DNA of 35,454 bases, from NCBI GenBank assembly GCA_964383425.1, contig CAYLGX010000003.1, positions 1 to 35,454 of the forward strand, given 5' to 3'. The notes under the pieces were generated by a model. The model did not search any database. It had not been told where the DNA came from and saw only the letters and a list, made by a program, of their open reading frames with translations. This DNA is from Candidatus Woesearchaeota archaeon (GTDB lineage: Archaea > Nanobdellota > Nanobdellia > Pacearchaeales > GW2011-AR1). Shown in pieces: positions 6,001 through 13,597 of this stretch. The translations under genes were made by a program, and so were the position numbers. How positions within the stretch are numbered: the first letter of the stretch is position 1; the number at the start of each line of letters is the position of its first letter.

Positions 6001-9000
6001 AACCGTCTGCAATTCCTAACTTACAACTGCTACCAATATACCAATCCGCATTATACCCTGTTTGACCAAAAATTCTATTTAATGAAGCCGAGCAAGTTCC
6101 AGTCAATGGATAAATCCATGCTGACATGGACCAATTCCGATTAGTAGTAATATTTGTAGATATATTTAATCCAATATTTAAATTGGCAGGAAATAAAATA
6201 GCATTACTTGATAAACCACTGTAATCACTTGGGCAATTAAGATTATTGTTATACCCATTGCAATAGGATATTGCACCAGTTTTAACGTCATTAAAATTAG
6301 TGTCCATCGAATAATAAACCATTAAATTCGGATTAGAAACATTAATAGAATTATCTTGATTAACAATTCCGCTTCTGCTTGTTGAATCTGCAGTCACTAA
6401 AGTTGTATTCCAATACGATTGTGTTGTGTTATAAAATACTCCGCTACTAAAAGAACTTAAAGCAGTTCTATATTTTCCAATTCTTGTTTGATTATTATAA
6501 ATTGCTAAAACATCTACTGCAGATAAATTGTAAGGCAAGACACGAACTTCATCGATAGTACCGTTGAAATAAACTAATGAACTATTTTTACCAAGATATA
6601 AAACATTTCCAGAATAATAAAATGGTTGTATCGGTACTATTCCTGCTACTCCGTTTACATAAGTACTTCCATTTGCATTTACAAAAAATTGCCAACCTGA
6701 ACCATTATTTATCCAAGCCATAGTTGTCATTTTTGTTTGAGTTATTGTTGTTGAAATAAAATCTCCACTAATTGCTCCGCCAAAATAATAAGCACTACTA
6801 GCATCTTTTCCGCCAGTCAGACTATATGTTGGCCCTTTACTTGTTCCAGATTGTCCAAGATAAGTTATCCCTCCGACAGAATTTCCTGCACTTACATCAA
6901 TAATTCCATTAAAAGAATTATCAGGATAAATCGCAATTCTTCCGCCAGCCCCACTTCCGGACCATTGTGTATAATTTGTTGATGCTCCCCCCTTTGCTGT
7001 AAAATTTCCAGAACCGGAAATATTTTGAGCATTAATCCAAACACTCCCGCCGGCTCCGCCGCCGCCCCTACAAGCTCCCGCTACTGCTCCCCAATTTCCA
7101 ATAATTCCACTGGATTCAATTAATCCATTATTTATTAATGTCCCGCTAATATTCATAAAAATTGCAGAACCACCGCGCCCCGTATAAACAATTCCGCAAT
7201 TAAGTAAATCTGCACCGCCCGCAGAACCCAGAGTAGTAGGATACATCATAGAACCATATACTGCTCCAACTACTGCGCCGCCAGTATTTGCCCCGCCAGT
7301 TCCACCATGACCCCCACCAGTTCCTCCCCCATGATTAGTTCCAGCTCCGGCTCCGGGGCCAGTTCCGTCCCGATAACCACAACCCGATAAATCAATGTAA
7401 GATCCAGCAGGTAATGTAAAGTTATTTGCGGTAATATTGACATATAAATTGGAAGTTGGAATTTGATTTCCGAGTACATTCCTAGTATAACCATAATTAA
7501 TATTACAGCCCAATTTAAAATTACCGATAAGAGTATGATTTTCTAAAATTAAATTAAAATTACTATACATTAATCTGGTATTAATATTGTCCAAAGTCAA
7601 ATTATGCCCGGTAAAATTCCAAGTACTATTTACTAATCTATTGAAGAAAGTTGTATCTTTATTGAACACATTTGTAGCCAAACCTCCGCGAATATAGATT
7701 TGTTTATGGTCTACGTCATTATAGACTAAAGAGCCAGAACCACTATAATTGTCTCCGGAGCTAACATTAGAGCTACCCAGTCCCGTCCAATCAGAAATAT
7801 TGTAGTAAACCGCTACTCTTCCTCCGCCACCGCCCCCCCCGTAATATGGCGCAGTATTACCTACTCCCCCCTTGGAAAGTAATAAACCATTACCGGATAA
7901 ATTATTAGTAGTGATATAAATAGAACCTCCTGCTCCTCCTGCTTCTCGCCCTCCTGAACCTGAAATTCCATTTGTAGTTATATTTGAATTTAATAAAATA
8001 TTTTGTGAATAAATATGGACTATTCCTCCGCCAGATTTACCTAAAGTTCCGGCCCCCCCGTCATTTGTTCCACCAGTACCGTAATCTGTTGGCATTAATA
8101 ATGAATCATGAGCACATCCGCCAAAATATTGACCCGAAGCATCTGCGCCATAACCACCATGACCCCCTCCAGCGCCCCCTCCATGAAACCCTGTGTCTCC
8201 CCTGCAAGTTCCAGTTTCACCAAGATAACCTAATCCCTCCGCATATATTTTAGAACCCGCATTCAAAGTTAGATTATCTGCAATAAGAGTAATATTCCCG
8301 CCCGTGATATTTCCCCCAGAAATAATTGTTATGGTTGCCCAATCCAGAATAATGCTCGCGCCATGATTTGTTCCAAAAACATTGGCAGAATAATTTGCAA
8401 TAGAACCTCTTGAACCAATAATTAAATTTCCAGCAGTACTTCCGCCCAAAATAATTCCACTTTGATAATAATAAGTATGATTCAATAAACAAGTTGTTGC
8501 AAATGAGCCAGTATCACAAAATCCATTACCCGTTGCGTTACCTACAAAAATTGTTCTAGTCTCTGTTTGAAAAGCATTATTAGAATTATCAAATAGAGTA
8601 TAAAACCAATTATATATTCCGTCAACTAATCCTACCACTACAGAAATTGTTTGTTGTAAATATGTTCCAAGAGTATTTGTAGTACTAGTATAGTTTGCTA
8701 CAAAACCTGTTTGATTGTTAATAGTTAAAGTTGCATTTGCTATTCCAGAAATATCATCTGTTGCAGTAACACTAAAATTAATATCTAAATTAGTAAAGTT
8801 AGAATTATTTAATGGAATTCCTAAAGAGGCATTAGGCACAACCGCATCGCTTAGGCCAATAGTTTGAGTTGAAAATCCAAGTAAATATGGCGAAACATCA
8901 GTAGTATTTGAATAGAAACTAGTTTTCATCTGCATAAACTTTCCAGGGAAACCTGCTTGAGAAGAAATTGATTGGCCCGTGCTTACTGTTTCAGTTGACC

Positions 9001-12000: not shown

Positions 12001-12661
12001 TAGTGTTAAAATTATTTACCACCATAACCAGGTGCATCCAATTTCCCGCGCTAAAATTAGCCAATTTACCCCAACAAGATCCACCTGTAACTCCTGTTGC
12101 TATCATATAAGCCCCACAAGTTGCCGGGCTCCAAGGAGATATTCTAACATCCCATTGGTTCGTATTTGATACCACCATATAAACTCCATTTCCATCTACC
12201 CCAGTAGTAGAAAGACTGTTGGTAAAATACCACCAAGATAAGGTATAGTTACTCCCTAAATTTGGCAAACTCGGAATATTAACATAATCATCGACGCCAT
12301 CAAACTGCAAACTGTTATTAATTTTACTTCCGATATTTCTCCAAGCGCTGTCATTGATATAACCGTTGGCAGTTCCATAATTATTATAGATGGAGTTATC
12401 TTTAATATAAGTTCCCTGAATAGGAGTAGAATTAATGTATATTGTTGGAGCATTTTCTGAAATAGTATTAAAATCCATTGCTAATATTGCGGCAGTATTT
12501 CTAATTCCAAAAGCAGTTGCTTCACTATTACTTACCAAAATATTATCACTTGAAGTATAAATGTAAGTTACTAGTGGAGCTATAATTAAAGCAGCCAATA
12601 AAATTACAATTAATAAAGGCGAAAATACTTTTAATTTATTTTTTTTAATCGAGAGTACCAT
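1..12661 (-). CDS. Giant membrane-anchored surface/adhesin-like protein, 3' end cut by the window edge (4220 codons visible). Signal anchor, 10 LamG (Laminin_G_3 / concanavalin-A-like lectin) domains, Ig-like modules and 3 glycine-rich beta-helix-like blocks.
   Basis: The minus-strand frame whose plus-strand triplets start at positions = 2 mod 3 has no tta/cta/tca triplet from position 2 up to the ATG at 12661-12659; I walked it 60-nt line by line. N-terminus MVLSIKKNKLKVFSPLLIVILLAALIIAPLVTYIYTSS is a Lys-rich n-region plus a hydrophobic anchor. Ten LamG C-terminal signatures of the type (L/I)DE(V/F)xI(Y/F)NRSLSxxE(V/I) lie at 2237-2284, 4403-4450, 5063-5110, 5756-5803, 6509-6556, 9050-9097, 9707-9754, 10391-10438, 11165-11212 and 11819-11866. 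Several that I translated upstream also show a GxW(H/M)H core, e.g. DGKWHHIVGTYNG. Ig-like motif DGIY(N/Q)WF occurs at 905-940, 1829-1864, 3938-3973 and 8588-8623. Gly-rich blocks lie at about 3040-3640, 6930-7390 and 7800-8245. The ORF is absent from the track only because no stop lies inside the window. Confidence 0.9.
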   Translation of the reverse strand, partial: MVLSIKKNKLKVFSPLLIVILLAALIIAPLVTYIYTSSDNILVSNSEATAFGIRNTAAILAMDFNTISENAPTIYINSTPIQGTYIKDNSIYNNYGTANGYINDSAWRNIGSKINNSLQFDGVDDYVNIPSLPNLGSNYTLSWWYFTNSLSTTGVDGNGVYMVVSNTNQWDVRISPWSPATCGAYMIATGVTGGSCWGKLANFSAGNWMHLVMVVNNFNTTYSNVTIFVNGSRLGTNSFGAQLVTNGNIRLGSGITASGGLWKPSMDEVMLFNRSLSQTEITDLYNNQSLGLRNSGLETDSNLVSYYKFDELSGNVANDSKGNNTSTLTNYPSLTTPLYGAAGGPDGSGAYMFDGVNDVISGSVSSITGPFTLSTWVKRNGANADNTAIIDVGTYSTTGFGLWMNAANSTAWRINGIYNNYKTAVNLSSNSWEYITVVYSGANVSMYKNGIMTTTEAYSVNPVSGVTYSLGKRQDSATYFNGSLDHVQIFNRALSASEVMNLYNGTLANKSARHSPGGTYASPVQYNSYPTYWNVTINKIDGNQVGDIADNNGINLSNPNLVSYWALDENFNDAKGANNGVCTTNCPNNASGLSSNAMRYDGLTQGIYAGNVGAVDGLSIWFKPAVAHTTATTNRYFIGSTGSSQGIFFGSSTSVCANELINIWNNGASARTCVLSSSLPSITADWHHMVLSWNGTQYLVYYDNQLMTGYTLAGTQAKLSYTDLGIGYADYAAALGYFNGSLDEVLVYNTSLTLSQVSQLYKSGLSQHANTNVTLQTRTAQDYNNTDPSLIGHWGLNGYYAEDSQGRFPATPSGGIISNSANTCKVGSCLNYDGVDDKLTSSVTLNGVPSATFSIWAKIKYDAGANNYLWIIPSGGAFQNYFNTDGAGMLYFSTFNGTGVTYKTVGYNVTNQTGNWVLITGVVASGQYNQLYLNGQWVANSSTVYNGNFLQSGNMEIGRYSSGFAVNGSLDEFMIFNRSLSASEINLLYANQNNGRKYLEYDPNLVSYYAFDEDEIGIWKDDSGHGLNGTTTTAPVYNSSAIVGPAMSFNDGNFIDLGTPSSLNMSSNMSVSLWFNTNDFSTQRYLLSNYNSGGIYSQYNVLANPANSVQMSWSNNVGGRTYTISGIQAGKWYHVLFVRNFTNGVQGYLNGVSVTTTAGGSAILPPSIYGSTAIGRAGSYSSFRYNGLLDEIRIYNRSLSAAEAADIYNMGLTMFSGVSNWSTETVSTGQSISSQAGFPGKFMQMKTSFYSNTTDVSPYLLGFSTQTIGLSDAVVPNASLGIPLNNSNFTNLDINFSVTATDDISGIANATLTINNQTGFVANYTSTTNTLGTYLQQTISVVVGLVDGIYNWFYTLFDNSNNAFQTETRTIFVGNATGNGFCDTGSFATTCLLNHTYYYQSGIILGGSTAGNLIIGSRGSIANYSANVFGTNHGASIILDWATITIISGGNITGGNITLIADNLTLNAGSKIYAEGLGYLGETGTCRGDTGFHGGGAGGGHGGYGADASGQYFGGCAHDSLLMPTDYGTGGTNDGGAGTLGKSGGGIVHIYSQNILLNSNITTNGISGSGGREAGGAGGSIYITTNNLSGNGLLLSKGGVGNTAPYYGGGGGGGRVAVYYNISDWTGLGSSNVSSGDNYSGSGSLVYNDVDHKQIYIRGGLATNVFNKDTTFFNRLVNSTWNFTGHNLTLDNINTRLMYSNFNLILENHTLIGNFKLGCNINYGYTRNVLGNQIPTSNLYVNITANNFTLPAGSYIDLSGCGYRDGTGPGAGAGTNHGGGTGGGHGGTGGANTGGAVVGAVYGSMMYPTTLGSAGGADLLNCGIVYTGRGGSAIFMNISGTLINNGLIESSGIIGNWGAVAGACRGGGGAGGSVWINAQNISGSGNFTAKGGASTNYTQWSGSGAGGRIAIYPDNSFNGIIDVSAGNSVGGITYLGQSGTSKGPTYSLTGGKDASSAYYFGGAISGDFISTTITQTKMTTMAWINNGSGWQFFVNANGSTYVNGVAGIVPIQPFYYSGNVLYLGKNSSLVYFNGTIDEVRVLPYNLSAVDVLAIYNNQTRIGKYRTALSSFSSGVFYNTTQSYWNTTLVTADSTSRSGIVNQDNSINVSNPNLMVYYSMDTNFNDVKTGAISYCNGYNNNLNCPSDYSGLSSNAILFPANLNIGLNISTNITTNRNWSMSAWIYPLTGTCSASLNRIFGQTGYNADWYIGSSCKLGIADGSNQVAPTDVVPMSQWSYITAVANDTNVTLWRNGNLIMTGPNTIGLSGKSYLGKTFDNNAGSYYMGGLDEFLVYNKSLSTSEINQLYKSGLSGHANTNVTIQTRTANSYNVSDPSLVGFWAMNNFNFADSSGNNGGVPQNGVKINKTGCKLGNCAQFDGVNDYVNLTYAAAANMATNDFTISTWINTVGSATNTIMDKRSNVNNAGYLFGLNNATQIAFVLNNGTFNSAIWANVNSINNSWHYLSVSINRTGNFTIYLDGALASTTVNNIVGSLSSSTPANIGRKSLDGSGWLNFNGSLDEFAIYNRSLSASEISNLYNFGLGMHAPADASLVSTWYFDEDEILGTDLSNGNNQGGCSGATCPIINSSSGVIGNGGYFPASANSFINISDSPSLNITGNITMSAWVLGSATDSGYRYIVSKTLTTGYNGYNLMKSNTNKAMIELDSTSPTFNQLQGTSNIQDGKWHHIVGTYNGTRSLIYVDGVLEGTGTLYSAGIAANNQVLKIGSYNYGANYYPGSIDEVRIYNRSLSAAEVLDLYNLGNMHINWSNGGNFSTTQNVRDGVGINSASSSKFMQFKSNFNSNNTAVAPYVLSYNVSNYPDIYAVNVTSFSPANNSGINNLNGVNFTANLTDDLAGIKNATLNVYNSTNSLINQNSIIVSGVSGTLTSTVGILVYLVDGIYNWFWNIFDFNDNQLITQNNTLTIGNICSSGTLSTTCILNRTYYFRDGEIISGTGNLIINSTGSIYSVTSRISVIINFSTVTIMAGGKITGANISIYTNNLTVLGTINTTGLGYAGGGDNTAGSGLGGGGSGNTVQHAGGGGAGYGGAGGNGGAYPAGGAGGTSYGSLTNPVDFGSGGGGHRSYDCAGQNIGGSGGGIIKLQITDTLNLTGNIYARGNSPALVTIYCNSGAGSGGSILINATRIIGAGSVNAGGATASIGTWNADRAAGGGAGGRIAVYMKQTSSNLTYVISGGSTDVSATAGGVGTVYLSPPLLSSVILSSTNISNNNTYQNLTILPNLNSSYSYGNTTNIYSWYKTNSTAINETIGTTLITNGLVAYYPLNNDTLDYAGANDGTTSGATLNYSGKVGGAYSFNGINDYINLGTGPTVNGYSEMTVSMWIRPRSLGSNMGLYGESTSTVSQARNTLAVYTDGTIRWGGRSSTSDSFQSVNSYKNISLDQWSHIVAIVNVVTKNITIYVNGIASNGSVSFLASTFSGGVSAQNIVLGKHFNDATPSFNGSLDEVMIFNRSLSDYEVQQLYTGSKYGGNILGSNETFIGDSFTSKVQPCDSIACGAQINSLPILIRDLVNPNAILITPANASYINNQTQNYTVNLTDESGIANATLNIYNSTNSLVNSTLVIILGAEGTLTSTVGIVVNLIDGIYNWFYNLFDFANNQFSTTNNTLNIDTTLPVPYFVSPTPRNDTGSNVAITIAVNVTEINPANATFAWNGVTYRYNSANFTNLGNNVWTLSLTNMTALLPGQLYYYNVTVIDLAGNSNTTETRLVKGNTAPVITVDNASTQSGFFNSSEIIINVSFADNEGNMNGSYVNLYYRNNYQNLTITLVNQTFDNSSGSSINLYLNYSSLTEGIYYLNSTATDAVGEVTNTSTKVIVLDRTSPNATLLLENNSYFDYNGVNLTVNLTDNLGIQNATLNIVNGSNVSQIINQTTINFVSGTVQTTVGVVVNLMDGIYQWFYSLFDWAGNANQSGNNSLMVDTYAPTMINVVYTPDTNGSIDPNTLMRFNVTVRDSLSSVNATVLEMFDGNNWQNYTMNLVNGSGTKYDGVWSTNFTTSSNETNYTFKILAIDTANNARESPELNFSSYWDCTWSVTNTLEATAGYSETKKLGNISITNTGDSNYNDGCTLTFKSQHNLESGKVTLNSASKSTAYSLLPGEMKNISVSYVFGLDVRSDAVIISTSETSEFTNTYQINATVTAVTSQAGPYLYQTISSAPAIVYIKPQTISLDAYISNLMGSDIPNYTNTAYNVSSNWVIDSAFTNLT
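3050..6650 (-). repeat. Intragenic higher-order repeat unit B (4 LamG + Ig-like + Gly-rich block) of the giant CDS
   Basis: Domain signatures in this unit sit 4635-4656 nt from their counterparts in unit A. LamG motifs at 6509/5756/5063/4403 pair with 11165/10391/9707/9050, and the DGIYNWF motif at 3938 pairs with 8588. The DNA is diverged, so this is an old duplication. Boundaries are approximate. Confidence 0.55.
7700..11300 (-). repeat. Intragenic higher-order repeat unit A (4 LamG + Ig-like + Gly-rich block) of the giant CDS
   Basis: Same evidence as unit B. The order and spacing of the four LamG signatures, the Ig-like motif and the Gly-rich block are conserved at an offset of about 4.65 kb. 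Confidence 0.55.
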
Positions 12662-12986
12662 AATTATTGTATATTGATTTATCTACTACAGTTATTGGGC
12701 CGAGTGTGGAATTTGTTGTTTCTGCAGCCTCATTAAAATCAAAATAAAGTGAACTGGCCGTAGGTCTAACTCCGTAGGGTGTGCTTTCAGTAGAATTAGA
12801 GAATACTAAATCGCCGGATGTTGAAAATAAAAAGTATGCTGCTGGTGCAATGATCAAAGCGCAAAGAAGAATAATTAATGCTATGATCAAAACAACTTTC
12901 AATACGGGTTTAAAATTTTTAAATTTATTTTCTTTCTTTTGTTTTTTCCCGATTTTTCCCGATTTTACTTTTTTTTGCTTTTTCAT
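12645..12986 (-). CDS. 113-aa membrane-anchored 'leader-only' paralogue of the giant protein N-terminus
   Basis: ATG at 12986. A Lys-rich n-region is followed by TM VVLIIALIILLCALIIAPAAYFLF. The protein aligns to the first ~100 aa of the giant protein: ILL.ALIIAP, L.(V/F)SNS, DFN, NST and the exact octapeptide SIYNNYGT. It stops 2 codons after that octapeptide, where the first LamG domain of the giant protein begins. It overlaps the giant ATG by 17 nt and the upstream gene by ATGA. Confidence 0.6.
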   Translation of the reverse strand: MKKQKKVKSGKIGKKQKKENKFKNFKPVLKVVLIIALIILLCALIIAPAAYFLFSTSGDLVFSNSTESTPYGVRPTASSLYFDFNEAAETTNSTLGPITVVDKSIYNNYGTLD

Positions 12987-13165
12987 TTTTCACCCTCAAA
13001 AATTATTTTTACTCTCTTGCCCAAGTATTCTTTTGGGACGATAACATGACATCCTGTTCCAAAACCTGCAACTTGTCTTTCGAGAATTTCACTTCCAGTT
13101 AGCTGTAGAATTATTTCGCTCTTTCCGAAGCTTTCTTCACCTTTTCCTTCTTTTTTCGAACTCAT
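12983..13165 (-). CDS. Small DUF2080-like protein (60 aa), first gene of the giant-protein operon
   Basis: ATG at 13165. The C-terminal motif FGTGCHVIVPKEYLGKRVKIIF matches my recollection of the archaeal DUF2080 pattern (fG.s..v.vPk.wiGk.v.vi). Its stop overlaps the next ATG (ATGA at 12983-12986). Confidence 0.55.
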   Translation of the reverse strand: MSSKKEGKGEESFGKSEIILQLTGSEILERQVAGFGTGCHVIVPKEYLGKRVKIIFEGEK

Positions 13166-13279: not shown

Positions 13280-13597
13280 ATGAAACCTAAACCTCTGGCC
13301 AATTTAGAACAAGATTATGATCTGGAACTAGCTCGGGCAGTAAAAGAAATAAAAAAACAGAAGGCAAAACGAGTTTTACTCCAGGTTCCTGACTTTTTTA
13401 AGCCGTATGCTACTCAAATTGCAGATAAACTTGAAAAAGCTACAAAAGTAGAAGTCTTTATTTATTTTGGTTCTTGCTTTGGAGCCTGCGATATTCCTAC
13501 GGATGAGGCCAAGGCAGTAAATTGCGATATGATTATACAGCTAGGTCATTCTAACTGGGACTTTAAGGATAAAAAAGAGATTCAGGTATTAAAGTAA
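13280..13597 (+). pseudogene. dph2: N-terminal domain-1 fragment of diphthamide synthase Dph2 (truncated or split gene)
   Basis: AKRVLLQVPDFFKPYATQIADKLE..VEVFIYFGSCFGACDIPTDEAKAVNCDMIIQLGHS matches the Dph2 N-terminal domain, including the GACD cysteine motif. The ORF stops after 105 aa, whereas archaeal Dph2 is about 330-350 aa. Only 146 nt of AT-rich spacer follow before the next gene. Confidence 0.7.

What the first reader, a model, noticed from the sequence alone, without database searches (positions are those of the whole stretch)
12645..12986. A 'leader-only' paralogue of the giant protein's N-terminus sits directly upstream and overlaps its start
The 113-aa ORF reproduces the first ~100 aa of the giant protein: a basic n-region, a TM containing ILL.ALIIAP, then SNS / DFN / NST and the exact octapeptide SIYNNYGT. 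It terminates two codons after that octapeptide, exactly where the first LamG domain starts in the giant protein. The giant gene's ATG lies inside this ORF's last codons (T-ATG-GT), giving a 17-nt overlap. Synonymous sites differ (TCA ATA TAC AAT AAT TAT GGT vs TCC ATC TAT AAT AAT TAT GGA), so the copy is not recent. It could be the 5' stump of a deleted upstream paralogue. It could instead be a separately made membrane stub that partners or competes with the giant protein during secretion or anchoring. A third option is a 5' cassette for recombinational switching.
Basis: seen in the sequence. Interest (0 to 1): 0.6.

Follow-up and report, generated by a model that had tools for sequence, protein, structure and literature searches.

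The report
Small membrane partner of giant protein
The 113-residue gene is a real, separately encoded copy of the membrane anchor plus the opening piece of a lectin-type (LamG) domain. The same kind of small gene sits directly before related giant surface-protein genes in at least three other uncultured archaea, so it is more likely a partner subunit carrying one half of a split domain than a dead gene fragment.

Summary
ORF 12645-12986(-) encodes 113 aa that match the giant protein's first ~100 aa (BLASTP E 2e-10). Against a family profile built without it, it scores 77 bits (E 3e-22). The giant's ATG lies in its TAT-GGT codons, giving a 17-nt overlap. Three independent run assemblies carry the identical junction.

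The shared piece is not a leader. This ~60-aa "module" also occurs far inside other proteins, always directly before a LamG core.

Profile and metagenome searches found three other loci (L062, L066/67, L068). In each, an ORF stops 1-2 codons after the module's G-T-L and overlaps the start of a giant gene. Those giants are collinear with the window's giant from residue 1382. They have no module of their own, and behind a beta-helix block they carry the LamG core that follows the module in unsplit relatives. The window's giant has the same module-less core at ~1941-2060. Two of the small proteins show dN/dS 0.14.

Best reading (about 0.5): the stub is the small, membrane-anchored half of a split LamG domain and docks onto the giant protein. 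This docking is inferred, not shown.

Main rival (about 0.3): a relic with no protein function. No orthologue of this particular stub exists to test selection.

The parts
12983..13165 (-). 60-aa DUF2080 (AbrB-like) gene, first gene of the operon. Its TGA overlaps the stub's ATG (ATGA). A TATA-like box (tttaaatatatat) lies upstream.
   Evidence: Pfam PF09853 at 26 bits against a cut-off of 21.5. It is the only copy in the genome. Start context. Among the loci fetched by then (L019-L065), a DUF2080 gene turned up only at L062/L064; L066-L068 were fetched later and not scanned.
12990..12997 (-). Shine-Dalgarno-like GAGGGTGA, 3 nt before the stub's ATG
12897..12986 (-). Stub residues 1-30: long Lys-rich, presumably cytoplasmic tail. 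It contains a 10-nt tandem duplication (AAAATCGGG at 12966-12958 and 12956-12948).
12822..12896 (-). Stub residues 31-55: single hydrophobic membrane span (VVLIIALIILLCALIIAPAAYFLF)
   Evidence: Read from the translation. It aligns with the membrane spans of the paralogues.
12648..12821 (-). Stub residues 56-113: the family 'module' (..VFSNSTE..G.R..A..L.FDFN..E...VDKSIYNNYGTLD), followed by TAA at 12645-12647
   Evidence: All 13 invariant columns of the family alignment are kept. Profile match of 77 bits. Two of five near-invariant columns deviate, M to F and Y to T.
12645..12661 (-). 17-nt overlap. The giant's ATG (12661-12659) sits inside the stub's TAT GGT codons, and the stub's stop is at 12647-12645. 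An A8 run lies at 12646-12639.
   Evidence: There is no SD-like or TATA-like element before this ATG.
12371..12598 (-). Giant residues 22-97: its own membrane span and module B, contiguous with its first LamG domain (Pfam match 121-281)
6857..8518 (-). Giant residues ~1382-1935: Gly-rich beta-helix block. From residue 1382 the protein is collinear with the mature giants of L062, L067 and L068.
   Evidence: BLASTP 32-35% identity over 1400-1700 aa. Sequence.
6482..6841 (-). Giant residues ~1941-2060: 'small LamG' core (PTYSLTGGKDASSAYYFGG...YFNGTIDEVRV) directly behind the beta-helix, with no module or canonical N-terminal strands in cis. This is the proposed docking site of the stub.

Best explanation
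The stub is a functional small membrane protein. It belongs to a recurrent but undescribed class: a cytoplasmic tail, one membrane span and an external ~60-aa module that is the opening part of a LamG (ConA-like) domain, ending 1-2 residues after a conserved G-T-L. It is encoded immediately upstream of, and overlapping, a giant surface-protein gene. That giant carries, behind a Gly-rich beta-helix block, a LamG core lacking that opening part.

Proposed working:
- DUF2080, stub and giant are transcribed together from the TATA-like box upstream of the DUF2080 gene.
- The stub is translated from its own Shine-Dalgarno site.
- Ribosomes finishing the stub restart at the giant's ATG, 14 nt upstream of the stub's stop codon.
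- After export, the stub's external module completes the module-less LamG core of the giant (residues ~1941-2060) by beta-strand complementation. This ties that part of the giant protein to the membrane.

Shown: the homology, the operon layout, the recurrence of the architecture in three other loci, purifying selection on two of the small proteins, the absence of a module in the partner giants, and the presence of exactly one free module and one module-less core of this subtype in the 942 kb assembled.

Inferred: membrane topology, translational coupling and, above all, the trans-complementation.
For: Family and module:
- The module is a family element, not a leader. It occurs in four further paralogues in this genome, in Woesearchaeota genomes and in 36 metagenome loci. 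It often has 100-1600 residues before it, and it occurs twice in P0007.
- In every unsplit case it is followed within about 8-25 residues by ..N.TGG.D.S.AY.FDG, where Pfam's LamG_3 match begins.

Recurrence of module-terminated ORFs:
- L062/L033: 491 aa, ends GTLR*.
- L066/67: 101 aa, ends GTLK*.
- L068: 173 aa, ends GTLQP*.
- Each overlaps by 4 nt the ATG of a giant gene.
- The L062 arrangement is seen on contigs from at least 4 samples.

Partner giants:
- They align with the window's giant from residue 1382 onward at 32-35% identity.
- They have no module.
- After the beta-helix they carry the same small LamG core that follows the module directly in unsplit P0006 and P0010.
- The window's giant has this module-less core at ~1941-2060.

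Selection and structure:
- P0014 against P0013 over 79 codons: dN/dS 0.14, dS 0.74.
- AlphaFold2 model of a paralogue (pLDDT 72, pTM 0.74) puts LLFMDF in a strand (pLDDT ~73) ahead of the confident jelly roll. Foldseek finds ConA-like lectin folds.
- A relative (L081) has the same small LamG with canonical N-strands ..NESGTVYDNSSYGNDGT, which resemble the module's ..NESSYVKDNSIYNNFGT.

The stub itself:
- It is intact, has a strong SD, keeps all invariant residues and is identical in four assemblies.
- DUF2080 lies upstream in the window and in L062/L064 only, among the loci scanned (L019-L065).
Against: - No orthologue of this particular stub was found, so selection on it cannot be measured. 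This covers 40 relatives, 401 genomes of the order, 1.84 billion representative proteins and the metagenome scan.
- The window differs from the three other loci. The giant here has its own membrane span, its own module B and 1381 extra N-terminal residues in place of a signal peptide. The overlap is 17 nt rather than ATGA. The stub keeps the family's Tyr, where the others have Trp or Gly codons that make an SD-like G-run before the giant's ATG.
- The stub scores lower against the profile than the intact paralogues (77 against 89-110 bits). It deviates at 2 of 5 near-invariant columns and has a longish terminal branch, 0.95-1.04 against a median of 0.53-0.66.
- The module tree does not group the four split modules, although a single origin is not excluded.
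- Profile-profile comparison did not align the module with canonical LamG N-terminal strands, and a profile of those strands does not hit the stub.
- The four loci were all found by searching with the module, so the association is partly a product of how they were ascertained. The reverse search found no further module-less cores.
Confidence: 0.5

Rival explanations
1. Relic. The stub peptide has no function of its own. It would be either the 5' stump of an upstream paralogue whose body was deleted, or the obsolete small subunit of an ancestral split arrangement, made redundant when the giant gained its own anchor and module. At most it survives as an upstream ORF whose translation, from a good SD, delivers ribosomes to the SD-less ATG of the giant gene.
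For: - The stub is unique to this genome.
- The giant has its own span and module.
- The giant's ATG has no SD or promoter-like element and lies inside the stub.
- The junction is not 'tuned' as in the other three loci.
- The stub is slightly more divergent than intact copies.
- The neighbourhood holds another split gene, Dph2.
- The stub is no closer to the giant's module (43%) than to other paralogues (41-50%), so it derives from a distinct old copy.
Against: - The ORF is intact at 113 codons in a 32.5% GC genome and keeps all 13 invariant residues.
- It ends at exactly the position where three selected, module-terminated proteins end, in front of a homologous giant. A random deletion end-point would rarely do that.
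- The same operon holds the one module-less LamG core of this subtype found in the genome.
Confidence: 0.3
2. Functional small membrane protein, but not by strand complementation. It could be a secretion or insertion helper, or a competitor that uses the same anchor and module to occupy the site (translocon, glycosylation machinery, S-layer or host receptor) used by the giant's own N-terminus.
For: The stub has the same kind of n-region, span and N-glycosylation sequons (NST, NST) as the giant's N-terminus. It is co-transcribed and overlapping. Such small proteins are conserved elsewhere.
Against: This does not explain why the partners in the three other loci lack exactly the module and keep the matching core. 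It also does not explain why the ORFs always end right after G-T-L.
Confidence: 0.12
3. A 5' cassette for recombinational switching. Recombination between the two SIYNNYGT-coding stretches would swap or delete the giant's own anchor and module.
For: Direct repeats about 300 nt apart share AATAATTATGG. Recombination there would give an in-frame fusion of the stub to the giant's body.
Against: Only 11 identical bases are shared. There is no variation among four assemblies. No recombinase and no array of silent copies lies nearby. The three related loci have no second copy to switch with.
Confidence: 0.04
4. Assembly or sequencing artefact, or one gene read through by a frameshift.
For: The genome is a fragmented assembly with many paralogues (116 contigs), and an A8 run lies at the junction.
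Against: The sequence is identical in three independent run assemblies and a JGI record. The stub's stop precedes the A-run. A fusion would place a second membrane span in the middle of the protein and put the lectin array on the wrong side of the membrane.
Confidence: 0.02

Closest known systems
Donor-strand (beta-strand) complementation between surface subunits: chaperone-usher pili, archaeal threads (PMC9715654), Pyrodictium cannulae (10.1101/2024.12.30.630787)
   Same: In both, an incomplete beta-sandwich in one polypeptide would be completed by a strand or strands supplied by another, outside the cell and without covalent linkage. In archaea such systems work without a dedicated chaperone.
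   Different: Here the fold is a LamG/ConA-like jelly roll, not an Ig-like pilin. The donor is a membrane-anchored 113-aa protein and the acceptor a protein of more than 4000 aa, so no polymer is formed. The complementation is inferred from gene architecture only.
Giant LamG-rich surface proteins of DPANN archaea (for example the Nanohaloarchaeota proteins described in PMC10266531)
   Same: The downstream gene is of this kind: more than 4220 aa, ten Laminin_G_3 matches, Ig-like and Gly-rich blocks, in a 0.94-Mb archaeal genome of the Woesearchaeota type.
   Different: As far as I found, those descriptions do not include a small upstream gene carrying a detached piece of one LamG domain.
Split genes of small-genome (DPANN) archaea
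   Same: A domain normally encoded in one gene is divided between two genes. In this same genome Dph2 is also in two pieces, on two contigs.
   Different: In the known examples (recalled from my own knowledge of Nanoarchaeum equitans; no paper was read for this) the halves are cytoplasmic enzymes or tRNAs. Here the two halves are adjacent, overlapping and exported, and a 550-680-aa beta-helix block with (in relatives) its own signal peptide lies between them.
Membrane-anchored stalk plus large outer subunit, as in Sulfolobus S-layer SlaB/SlaA (my own knowledge)
   Same: A small anchored protein holds a large surface protein.
   Different: There is no sequence or fold relation, and SlaA/SlaB do not share a split domain.

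Membership tests
Unnamed 'module' family (N.TE..G.R..A..L.MDFN..E..Y..D.S.YNN.GT preceding a LamG core) | Significant match to a profile of the family built without the query | tested here: met
   77.2 bits, E 2.8e-22 among 6624 ORFs. All 13 invariant columns are kept.
Unnamed 'module' family | Module is contiguous with a LamG core (..N.TGG.D.S.AY.FDG) in the same polypeptide | tested here: not met
   The stub stops 2 codons after G-T. This is what sets it, and three other ORFs, apart.
Module-terminated small subunit upstream of a giant (L062 491-aa protein, P0014, P0013) | N-terminal signal or membrane span, with the ORF ending no more than 3 residues after the module's G-T-L | tested here: met
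   GTLD* in the window; GTLR*, GTLK* and GTLQP* in the others
Module-terminated small subunit upstream of a giant | Stop overlaps the start of a giant gene that has a beta-helix block followed by a module-less small LamG core | tested here: met
   17-nt overlap. The giant is collinear with g62, g67 and g68 from residue 1382, with the module-less core at ~1941-2060.
Module-terminated small subunit upstream of a giant | Giant starts directly with a cleavable signal peptide and the beta-helix; ATGA junction preceded by a G-run made by Trp/Gly codons | tested here: not met
   The window's giant has its own span, module B and 1381 residues before the beta-helix. The overlap is 17 nt, and TAT is kept at the Trp/Gly position.
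Module-terminated small subunit upstream of a giant | Purifying selection on the small protein | tested here: inconclusive
   dN/dS is 0.14 for P0014 against P0013. No orthologue of the window's stub exists, and dS against the other members is saturated.
Laminin_G_3 / ConA-like lectin domain (Pfam PF13385) | Match to the Pfam model | tested here: not met
   The stub has no Pfam hit. In the giant the model starts at residue 121, after the module.
Laminin_G_3 / ConA-like lectin domain | Module forms the first strands of the jelly roll | tested here: inconclusive
   AlphaFold2 puts LFM in a strand at pLDDT ~73, and the fold matches ConA-like lectins. L081 has canonical strands that resemble the module. 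hhalign and an HMM of canonical strands do not align it.
Donor-strand complementation systems | Acceptor fold lacks a strand that is supplied in trans, shown by structure or binding | not testable with these tools
Only the gene architecture supports it.
DUF2080 (PF09853), for the upstream 60-aa gene | Match above Pfam's gathering score | tested here: met
   26 bits against 21.5; 25 bits in the genome scan

The most novel reading that the evidence does not exclude
A lineage of DPANN (Woesearchaeota-type) archaea has split one LamG lectin domain between two genes. A small membrane-anchored protein carries the first strands, and a giant secreted adhesin carries the rest behind an inserted beta-helix block. 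The two halves would reassemble outside the cell by strand complementation. That would be a previously undescribed way of docking a giant surface protein to the membrane, built on a jelly-roll lectin fold rather than a pilin fold. The window's stub would be the fourth member, in a variant where the giant has gained a second anchor of its own.
Probability: 0.35. Interest if true: 0.75.

Novelty: new variant of a known kind. Interest (0 to 1): 0.6.

Why it matters
Giant LamG-rich proteins are the main candidates for how ultra-small DPANN archaea hold on to their hosts, yet how they are anchored and assembled is unknown. If a small membrane protein supplies the missing strands of a lectin domain in the giant, that gives a concrete and testable assembly and anchoring mechanism. 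It would also extend strand complementation from pilus-type folds to LamG jelly rolls. A practical rule follows as well: a short 'hypothetical' ORF overlapping the start of a giant gene should not be dismissed as a fragment. Even if this stub turns out to be a relic, the three related loci show a selected split-domain architecture that deserves a structural test.

Tried and rejected
- Assembly artefact: rejected, because independent assemblies are identical.
- 'Leader' reading: rejected, because the module occurs internally in other proteins.
- Recent local duplication of the giant's own 5' end: not supported. The stub is 43% identical to the giant's module and 41-50% to other paralogues. The tree is star-like.
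- First AlphaFold2 run on giant residues 1-300 with 11 sequences was too poor to use (pLDDT 50).
- An HMM of canonical LamG N-terminal segments does not hit the stub, and hhalign aligns only the ..AY.FDG part. Homology of the module to canonical strands therefore rests on the model and on one bridging sequence.
- I considered that the giant's n-region (IKKNK, 12 nt GATTAAAAAAAA shared with L068) is a remnant of the relatives' signal peptide. I dropped this because the N-terminus aligns just as well with ordinary paralogues such as C74.
- Searches for stub-plus-giant arrangements in 40 relatives, 401 genomes of the order and 401 of the class found none beyond this genome.
- DUF2080 was absent from three related genomes.
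- A frameshift fusion of stub and giant was considered and rejected on topology, and because the stop precedes the A-run.


Full report
**1. What is there**

On the minus strand, three ORFs follow one another with overlapping ends.
- A 60-aa DUF2080 gene at 13165-12983 (Pfam 26 bits, cut-off 21.5).
- The 113-aa stub at 12986-12645.
- A giant ORF from 12661 to the window and contig edge, at least 4220 aa, with ten Laminin_G_3 matches.

The DUF2080 stop and the stub start share ATGA. The stub is preceded by GAGGGTGA, 3 nt before its ATG. The giant's ATG is the T-ATG-G of the stub's Tyr-Gly codons, 17 nt before the end of the stub's stop codon. It has no SD-like or TATA-like element of its own. 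A TATA-like box lies before the DUF2080 gene.

The genome is a 0.94-Mb, 32.5% GC, 116-contig archaeal assembly. Its closest module-bearing relatives are labelled Woesearchaeota or 'uncultured archaeon'.

**2.

- The stub matches the giant's N-terminus at E 2e-10.
- Three Logan assemblies of separate runs are 100% identical across stub and junction, and a JGI record holds the same gene order. The arrangement is therefore real DNA.

**3. The shared segment is a family module, not a leader**

The genome holds four more copies (contigs C2, C65, C74, C64). Wherever the contig allows, they run on into a LamG body.

Outside this genome the module is rare.
- 8 representative proteins at E below 0.001 among 1.84 billion.
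- 4 loci in GTDB genomes.
- 36 metagenome loci.
- 5 of 401 genomes of the order.

In many of these, 100-1600 residues precede it, and P0007 has it twice.

It is always followed within about 8-25 residues by ..N.TGG.D.S.AY.FDG, where Pfam's LamG_3 model begins. The loop after its final G-T also accepts large in-frame insertions: a CBM-like domain in P0008 and P0009, and a ~250-aa repeat block in P0004.

An AlphaFold2 model of the C65 paralogue (27-sequence alignment, pLDDT 72, pTM 0.74) makes LLFMDF a strand at pLDDT ~73, ahead of the confident jelly roll. Foldseek matches ConA-like lectin folds.

A relative (L081) has the same LamG subtype with canonical N-terminal strands ..NESGTVYDNSSYGNDGT. 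These resemble the module's ..NESSYVKDNSIYNNFGT.

Profile methods, however, did not align the module with canonical strands. 'The module is the first strands of the LamG fold' is therefore likely but not proven.

**4. The turn: the stub is not alone**

In the metagenome loci, one ORF (L033, the same as L062) ends ..DNSLYNSWGTLR*, the same place as the stub's ..SIYNNYGTLD*.

A profile search restricted to short proteins then found two more.
- P0014: 101 aa, ends ..NNWGTLK*.
- P0013: 173 aa as called, ends ..NNGGTLQP*.
- Both consist of an n-region, a membrane span and the module.

Their contigs show true stops and a 4-nt overlap with the ATG of a giant gene.
- L062: DUF2080 ... a small winged-helix gene, then the 491-aa protein, then a 2726-aa giant.
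- L066/67: a 52-aa ribbon-helix-helix-like gene, then 101 aa, then at least 1332 aa.
- L068: 173 aa, then at least 1378 aa.

The L062 arrangement is seen on contigs from at least four samples.

**5. The partner giants**

All three giants begin with a cleavable-looking signal peptide (..PSLNA|LTCNSGD). A 550-680-aa Gly-rich beta-helix block follows, with an Ig-like domain as well in L068. Then comes ..(P)TYN.TGGYDGSGAY.FDG..W.KNST..W.H.VW... This is the 'small LamG' core that follows the module directly in unsplit P0006 and P0010. None of the three has a module.

From residue 24 they are collinear with the window's giant from residue 1382, at 32-35% identity over 1400-1700 residues.

The window's giant has the same beta-helix (1382-1935). 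Right behind it lies a module-less core (PTYSLTGGKDASSAYYFGG.., ~1941-2060). Its only module is the N-terminal one, at residues 22-97.

In the assembled genome there is therefore exactly one free-standing module (the stub) and one module-less core of this subtype, both in the same operon. Three other SP-plus-beta-helix genes in the genome (C106, C12, C14) have neither a stub nor this core.

**6. Selection**

- P0014 against P0013 over 79 aligned codons (span plus module): 84% identity, dS 0.74, dN 0.10, dN/dS 0.14.
- In the three ATGA loci, the family's Tyr/Phe before G-T is replaced by Trp or Gly codons (CTGGGGGAC, TGGGGGGAC, CTGGGGTAC). These form a G-run 8-12 nt before the giant's ATG. Such a junction looks adapted for coupled translation.

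These small genes are therefore maintained, not decaying.

**7. How the window differs, and what that means**

- The window's giant has 1381 extra residues in place of the signal peptide: its own span, module B, several LamG domains and an Ig-like part.
- The overlap is 17 nt.
- The stub keeps Tyr, and that very TAT-GGT supplies the giant's ATG.
- The stub is somewhat more divergent than intact paralogues: 77 against 89-110 bits, 2 of 5 near-invariant columns changed, and a terminal branch of about 1.0 against a median of 0.5-0.7.
- No orthologue exists to test selection on it.
- The module tree is unresolved and neither groups nor separates the four split modules.

Parsimony favours an ancestral split arrangement. 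The four loci share the same break point, the same homologous partner, and the same position immediately upstream. A DUF2080 gene lies upstream in the window and in L062/L064 and in no other locus scanned (L019-L065; L066-L068 were fetched afterwards and not scanned). The giant's N-terminal extension would then be the derived feature. An independent truncation, or a partner that has since become redundant, cannot be excluded.

**8. Verdict**

The most likely reading (about 0.5) is a functional small membrane subunit whose module completes the giant's module-less LamG core in trans. The gene architecture, its recurrence and the selection on relatives are shown. The docking itself is inferred.

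The main rival (about 0.3) is a relic kept, at most, as a coupling upstream ORF. Other partner or competitor roles take about 0.12. Cassette switching and artefact are unlikely.

**9. Comparison with what is known**

Giant LamG proteins of DPANN archaea are well known (PMC10266531). Strand complementation between archaeal surface subunits is established for threads and cannulae (PMC9715654; 10.1101/2024.12.30.630787).

I found no description of a LamG domain split between a small anchored protein and a giant adhesin. Earlier notes of this scan report comparable split beta-sandwich cases in other genomes (e1-4272507, e1-1344424). Those are leads only and were not tested here.

Noticed in passing
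window 13280-13597 (+) and genome contig C48:1691-2386 (-): Diphthamide synthase Dph2 is in two pieces on different contigs. Pfam positions 2-65 lie here (105-aa ORF), and positions 62-274 lie in a 232-aa open frame on C48 with a candidate ATG start. This may be a split gene or a rearrangement break about 300 nt from the operon's promoter.
   Followed up: partly
window 12639-12646: An A8 run sits immediately at and after the stub's stop and inside codons 5-8 of the giant. A change of one A would put a stop into the giant's frame within 3 codons, so it is a possible on/off slippage site. All four assemblies show A8.
   Followed up: no
window 12948-12966: A 10-nt tandem duplication (AAAATCGGG twice, 10 nt apart) in the stub's Lys-rich tail encodes KSGKIGK. 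This tail (30 aa) is about twice as long as in the paralogues.
   Followed up: no
L066 3975, L068 7854, L062 11473: In the three ATGA-coupled loci, the family's Tyr/Phe codon before G-T is Trp or Gly. This creates a GGGG(G) run 8-12 nt before the giant's ATG, so a protein-coding motif appears to have been reshaped into a ribosome-binding site.
   Followed up: partly
genome contigs C106:2-904(-), C12:2-2284(-), C14:9903-14804(+): Three further giant genes start with near-identical signal peptides (M..NNKKTIFVI.VALFF..F..SFASA) and a beta-helix. The sequence just upstream of their ATGs is also conserved (in-frame ..YLKKK.VN). These shared 5' ends could promote recombination among them.
   Followed up: no
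C74:325-513(-); L066 3505-3663; L062 9793-10008; L020 4311-4556; L022 5765-6043: Small DNA-binding-type genes repeatedly sit just upstream of module-bearing giant genes: ribbon-helix-helix-like, a winged-helix family ending GSGKGTWIWW, and DUF2080. They are probably operon regulators.
   Followed up: no
P0004 (~255-520), P0008 and P0009 (~100-230): The loop right after the module's G-T takes large in-frame insertions: a repeated FYKDSSWYL block, and a CBM-like domain. This is the same loop where the gene is split in four loci.
   Followed up: partly
L062 8229-9417: The DUF2080 gene of L062 lies next to a DDE_Tnp_1 transposase gene on the opposite strand. An IS66-type transposase lies at the far end of the operon, so the giant-gene operon there may be flanked by mobile elements.
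   Followed up: no
L062 19650-21304; L022 4731-5702: A KaiC/RecA-like ATPase gene (PF06745) follows the L062 giant operon. A similar ATPase-like gene (..EGGPGSGKTIFC..) lies upstream of the L022 giant.
   Followed up: no
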